Source of the DNA: Escherichia coli
Lineage (GTDB): Bacteria > Pseudomonadota > Gammaproteobacteria > Enterobacterales > Enterobacteriaceae
Assembly (NCBI RefSeq): GCF_044324785.1
Contig: NZ_CP172127.1
Length of the DNA: 64,000 nucleotides
Direction: 5' to 3' (one strand)
The translations under genes and the position numbers were made by a program. The notes beneath the pieces are model-generated. The model searched no databases. It was not told the DNA's origin and worked only from the letters and a program-made list of their open reading frames with translations. This document shows positions 11,589 to 11,802 of this stretch, piece by piece. The first letter of the stretch is position 1. Every line of letters starts with the position of its first letter.

Positions 11589-11802
11589 GCTTCACCTCCG
11601 CAGAGGTCAAACGCTAGATGCAAAGAATTGCAGGTGCATTTCTGCATCTGTGAAGGGAGAAGAGAGTTTGGATTGTATGTGCGCATAAACGTCCCCGTTT
11701 AGCGCAGAAGTCACCGGAGTTGTTCAGGCTCCGGTGACATAATTATGCCGTGTTGATTTCCCAAAATCAAAATCGATAGAATTGCTCCTTCTTAAAACAC
11801 TT

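What the first reader, a model, noticed from the sequence alone, without database searches (positions are those of the whole stretch)
11710..11738. Perfect 10-bp GC-rich hairpin between ybcN and ybcM
GTCACCGGAG-9 nt-CTCCGGTGAC lies downstream of ybcM on the minus strand and is not followed by a U-run on either strand. It could be a rho-dependent pause element, an RNA-stability element or a protein binding site; K-12 has the small ylcH gene in this interval.
Basis: seen in the sequence. Interest (0 to 1): 0.15.

Follow-up and report, generated by a model that had tools for sequence, protein, structure and literature searches.

The report
Leader hairpin of prophage nin operon
The hairpin is real: it is the first stem-loop of a conserved, previously undescribed promoter-plus-leader cassette in front of the ninB (ybcN) recombination genes of lambda-like phages, with published K-12 maps placing an RNA start four bases inside it and RNA ends just after it.

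Summary
The perfect 10-bp/9-nt-loop hairpin at 11710-11738 is confirmed. A repeat like this is not rare by chance (about 0.7 expected per shuffled window), so the case rests on comparison. It does not belong to ybcM. It is part of a ~190-bp cassette upstream of ylcH-ybcN that recurs in phages and prophages lacking ybcLM (phi80, HK639, HK225, Klebsiella and Enterobacter phages) and matches in 2,827 of 5,426 complete E. coli genomes. Across 49 distinct versions the stem covaries (9 of 10 pairs compensatory; 88.8% paired against 58.4% in shuffles). G.U pairs outnumber A.C mismatches 75 to 2, so it folds as RNA on the ybcN-sense strand. The loop keeps a UGA(A/G)C core. A conserved sigma-70 promoter (TTGATT-17-CATAAT) ends 3 nt before the stem. 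Published K-12 data give a triphosphate-enriched TSS at window 11735, four bases into the 5' arm (247 reads), and Term-seq 3' ends at 11705/11704 (+31/+32). Best reading: a 5'-terminal leader stem-loop that also marks a promoter-proximal RNA 3' end; its upstream extension probably stops read-through from upstream, where lambda has tR2. Function is inferred and the conserved loop is unexplained. No Rfam family matches.

The parts
11753..11770 (-). Palindrome TTGATTTTGGGAAATCAA. Its 5' half, TTGATT (11765-11770), is the -35-like box.
   Evidence: Flagged by the promoter scan. TTGAT and ATCAA are at least 90% conserved. A symmetric change to TTGATA...TATCAA occurs in phi80 and HK225. Homology with phages that lack ybcLM starts here. 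It is single-copy in the window.
11742..11747 (-). -10 hexamer CATAAT, 17 nt after TTGATT
   Evidence: The -10 matches 5-6 of 6 consensus positions in 72 of 78 distinct modules, and the spacer is 17 nt in 73 of 78. Variants without TTGATT carry a perfect extended -10, TGnTATAAT.
11735..11735 (-). Transcription start site (A of GTCA), 7 nt after the -10 and the fourth base of the hairpin's 5' arm
   Evidence: Kim et al. 2012, PMC3415461, supplementary file 2: TSS 571542(+), 247 reads, assigned to ylcH, 49-nt 5' UTR, listed sequence ending ...CATAATTATGTCA. The libraries were 5'-triphosphate enriched and the TSS was seen in both replicates.
11710..11738 (-). Hairpin H1 (the finding): a 10-bp stem with a 9-nt loop. 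Only 11713-11735 (7 bp) is present in the transcript that starts at 11735.
   Evidence: All 56 distinct variants fold into a stem-loop. Covariation.
11720..11728 (-). H1 loop CCUGAACAA, with a conserved UGA(A/G)C core
   Evidence: T13, G14, A15 and C17 are invariant in 49 distinct cores. Klebsiella phages have CCUGAGCAA or UCUGGACAA on a stem of only 5 bp.
11704..11705 (-). Mapped RNA 3' ends, at +31 and +32 of the transcript. They lie 5-6 nt after the full stem and 8-9 nt after the 7-bp stem.
   Evidence: Adams et al. 2021, PMC7815308, supplementary files 1 and 3: 572349(+) and 572350(+), class 'orphan', 19 nt upstream of ylcH, flanking sequence ...GGTGACTTCTG|CGC.
11680..11706 (-). Hairpin H2: the loop GGGGA is the ylcH Shine-Dalgarno, and the ylcH AUG (11684-11686) lies in the 3' arm
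   Evidence: Fold. Three covarying E. coli-type variants plus a Klebsiella variant keep the start codon at the same place. The equivalent repeat is annotated IR4 in phi80 record JX871397.
11585..11686 (-). ylcH, a 33-codon leader ORF whose stop overlaps the ybcN start (GTGA)
   Evidence: The ORF is intact in 89 of 89 distinct modules at 31-34 codons in nearly all of them, with stop-start overlaps ATGA 54, GTGA 33, GTAA 2. There is no Pfam hit.
11650..11679 (-). Unstructured C-rich stretch of 30 nt without G (rut-like) inside the 5' half of ylcH
   Evidence: Predicted unpaired in the 150-nt leader fold; sequence.
11616..11649 (-). Hairpin H3 (GAUGCAGAAAUGCACCUGCAAUUCUUUGCAUC) inside ylcH
   Evidence: Fold. 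The core is invariant in the modules found by BLAST. Its inner stem plus T-rich tail was flagged as terminator-like.
11587..11614 (-). Hairpin H4, which sequesters the ybcN Shine-Dalgarno (GGAGG) and the GUG start
   Evidence: Fold. The stem covaries between variants: ACCUC/GAGGU against GGUUUCC/GGAGGCC.
11133..11588 (-). ybcN (NinB/Orf family), the first long gene served by the leader

Best explanation
The hairpin is the first stem-loop of a self-contained promoter-leader cassette that precedes the first gene of the nin-to-Q segment of lambdoid phages (ylcH-ybcN here). A sigma-70 promoter (TTGATT-17-CATAAT) fires at window 11735. The mRNA therefore begins, with no unpaired 5' nucleotide, with the inner 7 bp of the hairpin and its conserved loop. 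I infer that this 5'-terminal stem-loop protects the leader from 5'-end-dependent decay and sets a promoter-proximal RNA 3' end at +31/+32. That end could be a premature termination product or a stable 5' fragment. If it is premature termination, it would limit how much transcription reaches ylcH, ybcN and the genes beyond. The outer 3-6 bp lie upstream of the start site and exist only in RNA arriving from upstream genes. There the full 10-14 bp hairpin probably acts as a leaky, U-poor stop or 3'-end stabiliser, at the position where lambda has tR2. Downstream, H2 masks the ylcH start and H4 masks the ybcN start, so ybcN translation depends on translation of ylcH. Shown: the structure, covariation, folded strand, promoter conservation, TSS, 3' ends, and the conserved, coupled ORF. 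Inferred: stabilisation, attenuation and the insulator role.
For: - The hairpin exists and folds.
- It belongs to the ninB-upstream module. Matches in genomes and phages lacking ybcM start at about window 11771. The module occurs in 2,827 of 5,426 complete E. coli genomes and is diverged but recognisable in Klebsiella and Enterobacter phages.
- Stem covariation: 88.8% of cells paired against 58.4% in shuffles (0 of 500 as high); 9 of 10 pairs with compensatory changes; covariation score 0.79 against 0.28; slid registers 29-55% paired.
- Strand: 75 G.U pairs against 2 A.C mismatches.
- Promoter: 75 of 78 distinct modules keep either a -35 or an extended -10.
- Experimental TSS at 11735 with 247 reads, against a dataset mean of 107.8.
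- The predicted +1 is a purine in all 58 distinct variants and lies inside the 5' arm in 57 of them. In Klebsiella phages the 5-bp stem starts exactly at the predicted +1.
- Term-seq 3' ends at +31/+32 in two growth conditions.
- The 150-nt leader folds into H1-H4 at -54.8 kcal/mol, z = -5.2.
- Pairs upstream of +1 are fewer when a canonical terminator sits just upstream (2.36 against 3.45, p = 0.03), while pairs from +1 onward do not differ. H1 is also weaker overall in those modules (-12.4 against -15.3 kcal/mol, p = 0.005).
- Lambda has tR2 at the equivalent position.
- The ybcN-rusA operon is reported as poorly expressed without a promoter-supplying insertion (PMC4118853), although this TSS is above average. 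That fits attenuation.
Against: - No half-life, reporter or in vitro termination data exist, so the function is inferred.
- The Term-seq counts are low (about 1,600-1,900), and the 3' end is absent from the LB OD 0.4 sheet, so there is no Rho score or intrinsic-terminator score.
- The 3' ends could equally come from ybcLM read-through RNA or from nuclease trimming.
- Neither a protective 5' hairpin nor a terminator needs a specific loop sequence, yet the loop is the most conserved part.
- The tail (UUCUGCGC) and the 9-nt loop are poor for intrinsic termination. Klebsiella versions have a 5-bp stem and no conserved tail, so termination cannot be the deeply conserved role.
- The with/without-terminator comparisons use sequences that are not phylogenetically independent.
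- Only one TSS dataset could be consulted; the others were not held or were truncated.
Confidence: 0.6

Rival explanations
1. It is simply the transcription terminator, or 3'-end stabiliser, of the ybcL-ybcM insert (moron), with no relation to ylcH/ybcN.
For: It lies 65 nt downstream of the ybcM stop. A Term-seq 3' end follows it. ybcLM and ylcH RNA levels rise together under microaerobic growth.
Against: The hairpin is retained, at a fixed distance from ylcH/ninB, in phages and prophages that have entirely different genes upstream, and homology starts about 33 nt upstream of it. A mapped TSS lies inside it. The ybcM TSS has only 2 reads against 247 for this one.
Confidence: 0.1
2. Its main job is premature termination. 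The hairpin is a promoter-proximal attenuator, intrinsic-like and possibly helped by NusA or NusG, that ends most transcripts at +31/+32. A factor that recognises the conserved loop relieves it during lytic growth.
For: The 3' ends lie 8-9 nt after the 7-bp stem, which is the canonical hairpin-to-end distance. The TSS is strong but the operon is reported as poorly expressed. The cassette can sit directly in front of a Q antiterminator gene, which would need tight control in a lysogen. The conserved loop suggests a binding partner.
Against: The tail has 3 U in 8 nt and the loop is 9 nt, so the terminator scan does not flag it. Klebsiella versions have a 5-bp stem and non-conserved tails. No intrinsic-terminator score is available. 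Term-seq counts are low. No candidate factor was identified.
Confidence: 0.3
3. The 3' ends are trimming products. Rho terminates untranslated leader RNA in the C-rich ylcH region, or RNase E cuts the linker, and 3' exonucleases then chew back to the hairpin.
For: A 30-nt G-free, C-rich unstructured stretch follows H2. Adams et al. state that most non-intrinsic 3' ends arise this way. The distance of 5-9 nt from a stable stem fits exonuclease stalling.
Against: An exonuclease coming from downstream would first have to pass H2 (about -14 kcal/mol). No Rho score exists for this site.
Confidence: 0.25
4. It is a DNA-level element: a palindromic binding site for a dimeric protein, or a cruciform, overlapping the promoter's start site.
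For: The repeat is perfect in this window and straddles +1. A second palindrome overlaps the -35 box.
Against: The arm sequences vary freely while pairing is kept. G.U/U.G pairs (75) far outnumber A.C/C.A mismatches (2), which is expected for RNA on one strand and not for DNA. The sense strand folds better in 37 of 56 variants, against 18 for the antisense strand.
Confidence: 0.05
5. The loop is a recognition loop (YUNR U-turn type) for an antisense or trans-acting RNA, or the 31-32-nt RNA is itself a small regulator.
For: CUGA and UUGA in the loop fit the YUNR pattern (my own knowledge of the motif; loop sequences). A discrete short RNA is implied by the mapped 5' and 3' ends.
Against: No conserved antisense promoter was seen by eye in the reverse complements of the module variants. 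Complementary 9-mers in the window occur at chance level. It is not AgvB or a Pas sRNA. There is no Rfam hit.
Confidence: 0.1

Closest known systems
5'-terminal stabilising stem-loops of E. coli mRNAs (ompA 5' UTR type)
   Same: The hairpin starts at the mapped +1 with no unpaired 5' nucleotide, and this holds for the predicted +1 in 57 of 58 variants. It is followed by a second hairpin that carries the ribosome-binding site.
   Different: No half-life data exist. The loop sequence is conserved, which such stabilisers do not require. The stem extends upstream of +1 and those extra pairs covary.
Lambda tR2, the intrinsic terminator between ren and ninB
   Same: Same map position, directly upstream of the ninB-family gene. 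An RNA 3' end is mapped just after the hairpin. The stem is weaker when a canonical terminator is already present upstream.
   Different: There is no sequence similarity to tR2 and lambda lacks the module. There is no U-tract, and the loop is 9 nt. A promoter fires from inside it. Many phages carry both a canonical terminator and this hairpin.
Leader-ORF translational coupling, as in the ATGA overlaps typical of nin regions
   Same: ylcH is a conserved 31-34-codon ORF whose stop overlaps the next start. The downstream Shine-Dalgarno is held in a covarying hairpin.
   Different: This applies to the cassette as a whole. H1 itself lies upstream of the ORF and is not part of the coupling device.
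HK022 put antiterminator RNAs
   Same: Two adjacent stem-loops transcribed immediately downstream of a phage promoter (for put; for this leader).
   Different: put RNAs are about 70 nt with irregular, bulged stems and a triplex, lie after PL and PR, and carry no translation start. Here the stems are regular, the site is in the nin region, and H2 holds a Shine-Dalgarno and an AUG.

Membership tests
Intrinsic (Rho-independent) terminator | GC-rich stem followed within 0-2 nt by a U-rich tract | tested here: not met
   The tail is UUCUGCGC (3 U in 8). The consensus scan, which needs a loop of 3-8 nt and at least 5 T in 8, does not flag it. Tails across variants are given.
Intrinsic (Rho-independent) terminator | RNA 3' ends 7-9 nt after the stem in vivo | tested here: inconclusive
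   Term-seq 3' ends lie 5-6 nt after the 10-bp stem, or 8-9 nt after the 7-bp stem present in the transcript from the ylcH promoter. The origin of these RNAs is not known.
5'-terminal protective stem-loop | The stem begins at or within about 2 nt of the primary 5' end | tested here: met
   The TSS at 11735 is the first base of a 7-bp stem. The predicted +1 is paired in 57 of 58 variants and in Klebsiella phages.
5'-terminal protective stem-loop | Removing or unpairing the stem shortens the mRNA half-life | not testable with these tools
   This needs a rifampicin chase of wild-type and mutant leaders.
HK022-type put RNA | About 70 nt with two long irregular stems, located downstream of PL or PR, acting through the RNA polymerase beta' zinc-binding domain | tested here: not met
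   The architecture and location differ. Dependence on beta' is not testable here.
Lambda-type nut site (boxA plus boxB) | A 5-bp stem with a GNRA-like pentaloop, preceded by boxA (from my own knowledge of lambda and P22 nut sites) | tested here: not met
   The stem is 7-14 bp and the loop 8-9 nt. No boxA-like sequence lies upstream, where the -10 element sits instead.
Any Rfam family | A covariance-model match | tested here: not met
   cmscan of window 9000-14000 at E-value up to 1 gives no hit in 11560-11830.
Prophage Hfq-binding sRNAs (AgvB, AsxR, Pas) | Located downstream of PR' or next to the lysis genes, with an intrinsic terminator at the 3' end | tested here: not met
   The genomic location differs. 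There is no Rfam hit to RF02702 or RF02703.
REP/BIME-type repeated palindromes | Many dispersed copies per genome | tested here: not met
   The -10-plus-loop motif occurs once in the 64-kb window. In E. coli genomes the match falls under the ylcH-like small ORF and ybcN in every listed row, at 1-3 copies per genome.
Sigma-70 promoter (for the adjoining element) | -35 and -10 hexamers at 16-18 nt spacing, with a primary 5' end about 7 nt downstream | tested here: met
   Variants without a -35 box have an extended -10 instead.

The most novel reading that the evidence does not exclude
The cassette is a new class of cis-regulatory phage leader RNA. The conserved UGA(A/G)C loop of H1 would be the docking site for a still unknown host or phage factor (protein or RNA). 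That factor would switch a constitutively firing internal promoter between making an abortive 31-nt RNA and making productive nin-to-Q mRNA. This would be an N-independent route to recombination-gene expression, and in some phages to Q expression.
Probability: 0.2. Interest if true: 0.7.

Novelty: new variant of a known kind. Interest (0 to 1): 0.4.

Why it matters
Textbook lambda expresses its nin genes and Q only from N-antiterminated PR transcripts. The DLP12 ybcN-rusA operon is regarded as lacking an active promoter (PMC4118853). Here an internal sigma-70 promoter with a four-hairpin leader and a coupled 33-codon ORF sits in front of ninB, and in one phage directly in front of Q. The cassette is conserved across mosaic lambdoid phages and matches in about half of complete E. 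coli genomes. It has been detected experimentally, with both a TSS and 3' ends, but only in supplementary tables, and I found no description of it. If the leader gates transcription, it would explain why a well-used start site yields little rusA expression. It would also give a handle on prophage-borne recombination functions and on N-independent Q expression. Even on the ordinary reading, it is a candidate new structured-RNA family for annotation.

Tried and rejected
- **AgvB anti-sRNA:** the CA-rich stretch after H2 suggested it. Rejected because AgvB maps downstream of PR'.
- **Pas sRNAs:** these lie next to the holin/lysis genes, so rejected.
- **Rfam:** no hit at E-value up to 1.
- **Partner for the loop:** 9-mers complementary to the loop occur at chance level in the window.
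- **Operator set:** the TTGAT-N8-ATCAA palindrome is single-copy in the window.
- **MAFFT plus RNAalifold on the 104-sequence alignment:** gap placement split the stem columns and recovered only 5 pairs of H1. I replaced this with fixed-geometry cores.
- **First version of the +1 analysis:** it picked a CATAAT inside the palindrome, so I discarded it and redid it.
- **TSS and 3'-end datasets with nothing retrievable:** Thomason 2015 is not held. Cappable-seq, SMRT-Cappable-seq, ROSE and the Rend-seq paper returned no hits or had no stored supplementary files; the stored tables may be incomplete. The Klebsiella TSS sheet of Kim et al. is cut off in the stored file.
- **phi80 genome paper:** not held, so the authors' view of IR4 is unknown.
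- **HK022 record:** it does not annotate put sites, so the put comparison rests on the description in PMC9378689.

Full report
**Observation.** The window carries a DLP12-type lambdoid nin region on the minus strand: ybcK, ybcL, ybcM (11803-12600), a 33-codon ORF identical in position to K-12 ylcH (11585-11686), ybcN (11133-11588), ninE, ybcO, rusA, ylcG and quuD. The reported inverted repeat is exactly as described. The arms are GTCACCGGAG at 11710-11719 and CTCCGGTGAC at 11729-11738, with a 9-nt loop. It folds at -19.8 kcal/mol on the minus strand and -22.6 kcal/mol on the plus strand. No U-run follows on either strand, and the terminator scan does not flag it. By itself it is not statistically remarkable. 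The window holds five perfect 10-bp inverted repeats with 3-12-nt loops, 0.7 are expected per dinucleotide shuffle, and 42% of shuffles contain at least one.

**It belongs to the ninB-upstream module, not to ybcM.** A 271-nt query across the interval matches 2,827 of 5,426 complete E. coli genomes. Only 675 of these cover the ybcM end. In the rest, homology begins at query position 59-60 or 73-74 (window about 11771 or 11758), upstream of the hairpin, and runs into ybcN. The upstream neighbours in those genomes are unrelated: ren plus hypothetical genes, a SIR2-family protein, or an alpha/beta hydrolase. The same block occurs in sequenced phages that lack ybcLM, including Perceval, HK639, HK225 and phi80. 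The phi80 record annotates only the second hairpin of the block, as IR4.

**Comparative anatomy.** A seven-sequence alignment showed a compensating stem in phi80 and HK225 (TCUGCCAG(C)GG/CCCUGGCAGA) around an unchanged loop. To avoid circularity I collected loci with an anchor that does not include the hairpin, the 21-mer CAGATGCAGAAATGCACCTGC inside ylcH. From these and the earlier loci I obtained 104 distinct 210-nt modules and 56 distinct hairpin segments.
- All 56 segments fold into a stem-loop of 8-14 bp with an 8-9-nt loop.
- On 49 fixed-geometry cores, 88.8% of cells pair against 58.4% in column shuffles (0 of 500 shuffles as high).
- Nine of ten pairs show compensatory changes. The covariation score is 0.79 against 0.28 (0 of 500), and all slid registers give 29-55% pairing.
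- Relatedness of the sequences inflates such statistics, but the stems include at least seven unrelated arm sequences.
- G.U/U.G pairs number 75, against 2 A.C/C.A mismatches. The constraint therefore acts on RNA of the ybcN-sense strand and not on DNA.
- The loop keeps T13, G14, A15 and C17 invariant, as CCUGAACAA, CCUGAACAC, AUUGAGCC or ACUGAGCAC.
- In the far more diverged Klebsiella phage modules the stem shrinks to 5 bp (GUCAG/CUGAC), but the loop is still CCUGAGCAA or UCUGGACAA.

**A promoter abuts the hairpin.** TTGATT-17-CATAAT (11770-11742) was flagged by the scan and is conserved.
- The -10 matches 5-6 of 6 consensus positions in 72 of 78 distinct modules, and the spacer is 17 nt in 73 of 78.
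- The variants that lack TTGATT carry a perfect extended -10, TGnTATAAT. In all, 75 of 78 modules have one or the other.
- Klebsiella modules have TTGCAT-17-GATAAT.
- In 13 of 88 distinct contexts, and in the Klebsiella phages, a canonical intrinsic terminator ends 11-12 nt before the -35 box. So the cassette looks like a transcription unit of its own.

**Published transcript ends.**
- Kim et al. 2012 (PMC3415461, supplementary file 2) list a TSS from 5'-triphosphate-enriched libraries, seen in both replicates, in glucose minimal medium. It lies at 571542(+), is assigned to ylcH, and has a 49-nt 5' UTR.
- It has 247 reads. The dataset mean is 107.8, and the neighbouring ybcM and ybcQ entries have 2 and 3.
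- The listed sequence ends ...CATAATTATGTCA, so +1 is window 11735. That is 7 nt after the -10 and the fourth base of the 5' arm.
- Adams et al. 2021 (PMC7815308, supplementary files 1 and 3) list Term-seq 3' ends at 572349(+) and 572350(+). They are classed 'orphan', lie 19 nt upstream of ylcH, and have the flanking sequence ...CTCCGGTGACTTCTG|CGC. They appear on two condition sheets but not on the LB OD 0.4 sheet, which is the only one with Rho and terminator scores.
- These positions are window 11705 and 11704, that is +31 and +32.
- The primary transcript therefore starts with a 7-bp stem (ACCGGAG/CUCCGGU, -10.6 kcal/mol) with no 5' overhang. RNA ends accumulate 8-9 nt after that stem.

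**The rest of the leader.** From +1 to the ybcN GUG (150 nt) the RNA folds into four hairpins at -54.8 kcal/mol, z = -5.2.
- H1 spans +1 to +23.
- H2 has the ylcH Shine-Dalgarno (GGGGA) in its loop and the AUG in its 3' arm.
- A 30-nt G-free, C-rich stretch follows and is predicted to be unpaired.
- H3 lies inside ylcH.
- H4 sequesters the ybcN Shine-Dalgarno and start codon.

H2 and H4 covary between module variants. The ylcH frame is intact in 89 of 89 distinct modules, at 31-34 codons in nearly all. Its start sits at a fixed position in H2, and its stop overlaps the next start (ATGA 54, GTGA 33, GTAA 2). The downstream gene is one of several NinB-family alleles that are less than 60% identical to each other. 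In locus L013 it is a Q antiterminator. So the cassette serves whatever gene opens the nin-to-Q segment.

**Interpretation.** The regularity that holds everywhere, including in Klebsiella phages, is that the predicted +1 (always a purine) falls at or inside the 5' arm. This is true in 57 of 58 distinct variants. A hairpin placed at the extreme 5' end is the defining geometry of protective 5'-terminal stem-loops, so I take that as the core role. The observed +31/+32 ends show that a discrete short species also forms. Whether it arises by premature termination or by trimming cannot be decided here.

The 3-6 outer base pairs lie upstream of +1 yet covary (GUC/GAC, CC/GG, UCU/AGA, AAGGU/ACCUU). 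They can only matter in RNA that arrives from upstream. Two observations support that reading, although the samples are not phylogenetically independent:
- Modules with a canonical terminator just upstream have fewer pairs upstream of +1 (2.36 against 3.45, p = 0.03), while pairs from +1 onward do not differ (7.6 against 7.3, p = 0.23).
- H1 is also weaker overall in those modules (-12.4 against -15.3 kcal/mol, p = 0.005).

Lambda has tR2 at exactly this map position. I therefore propose a second, insulating role for the long form.

The poor expression of the DLP12 ybcN-rusA operon reported in the literature (PMC4118853) contrasts with the above-average TSS and fits an attenuating leader. The conserved loop is explained by none of these roles and is the main open point.

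**Comparison with known systems and novelty.** The element meets the geometric criterion of a 5'-terminal stabiliser. It fails the U-tract criterion of an intrinsic terminator. It does not match put RNAs, nut sites, AgvB or Pas sRNAs, or any Rfam family. I found no paper that describes the cassette. The TSS and the 3' ends appear only in supplementary tables, and ylcH is mentioned only in expression lists. I rate it a new variant of a known kind, namely a promoter-straddling leader hairpin in a uORF-coupled leader. It is moderately interesting, and its function is still to be shown.

Noticed in passing
window 9599-9622 (minus strand): A strong terminator-like hairpin, AGCCAGCC...GGCTGGTT followed by TTTTTC, lies about 100 nt downstream of quuD. 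It gives a sub-threshold Rfam hit (RF02278, 28.6 bits against a gathering score of 50). It is probably this prophage's PR'-proximal tR'/6S-like terminator. A convergent lipocalin gene lies at 9041-9565.
   Followed up: no
L013:10907-11919: In this viral contig the ylcH leader cassette is fused directly, through an ATGA overlap, to an antiterminator Q gene (PF03589), with no nin genes in between.
   Followed up: partly
window 11753-11770: The -35 box is half of an 18-bp palindrome, TTGATx-N6-xATCAA, with a symmetric change to TTGATA...TATCAA in phi80 and HK225. It could be an operator for an unknown conserved regulator. It is single-copy in the window.
   Followed up: partly
window 11600 region; L003:2546-2755: The K-12 copy differs from this window by one base in the 271-nt interval. 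The change lies in the ybcN Shine-Dalgarno (GGAGGT becomes GGAGGG) and is synonymous in ylcH.
   Followed up: no
window 11629-11649 (minus strand): The 21-mer CAGATGCAGAAATGCACCTGC inside ylcH is invariant in all E. coli-type modules found by BLAST, which were not selected with the anchor. It is diverged in Klebsiella phages, where both Cys codons are lost. That suggests an RNA-level (H3) constraint rather than a peptide constraint.
   Followed up: partly
window 14882-14905, 34283-34306, 60075-60102: These are the other perfect 10-bp inverted repeats with short loops in the window. The one at 34283 is GC-rich (CCGGATGCGA, 4-nt loop).
   Followed up: no
window 11650-11679 (minus strand): A 30-nt stretch without any G, C-rich and predicted to be unpaired, lies in the 5' half of ylcH. 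It looks like a Rho utilisation (rut) site that would be exposed when ylcH is not translated.
   Followed up: no
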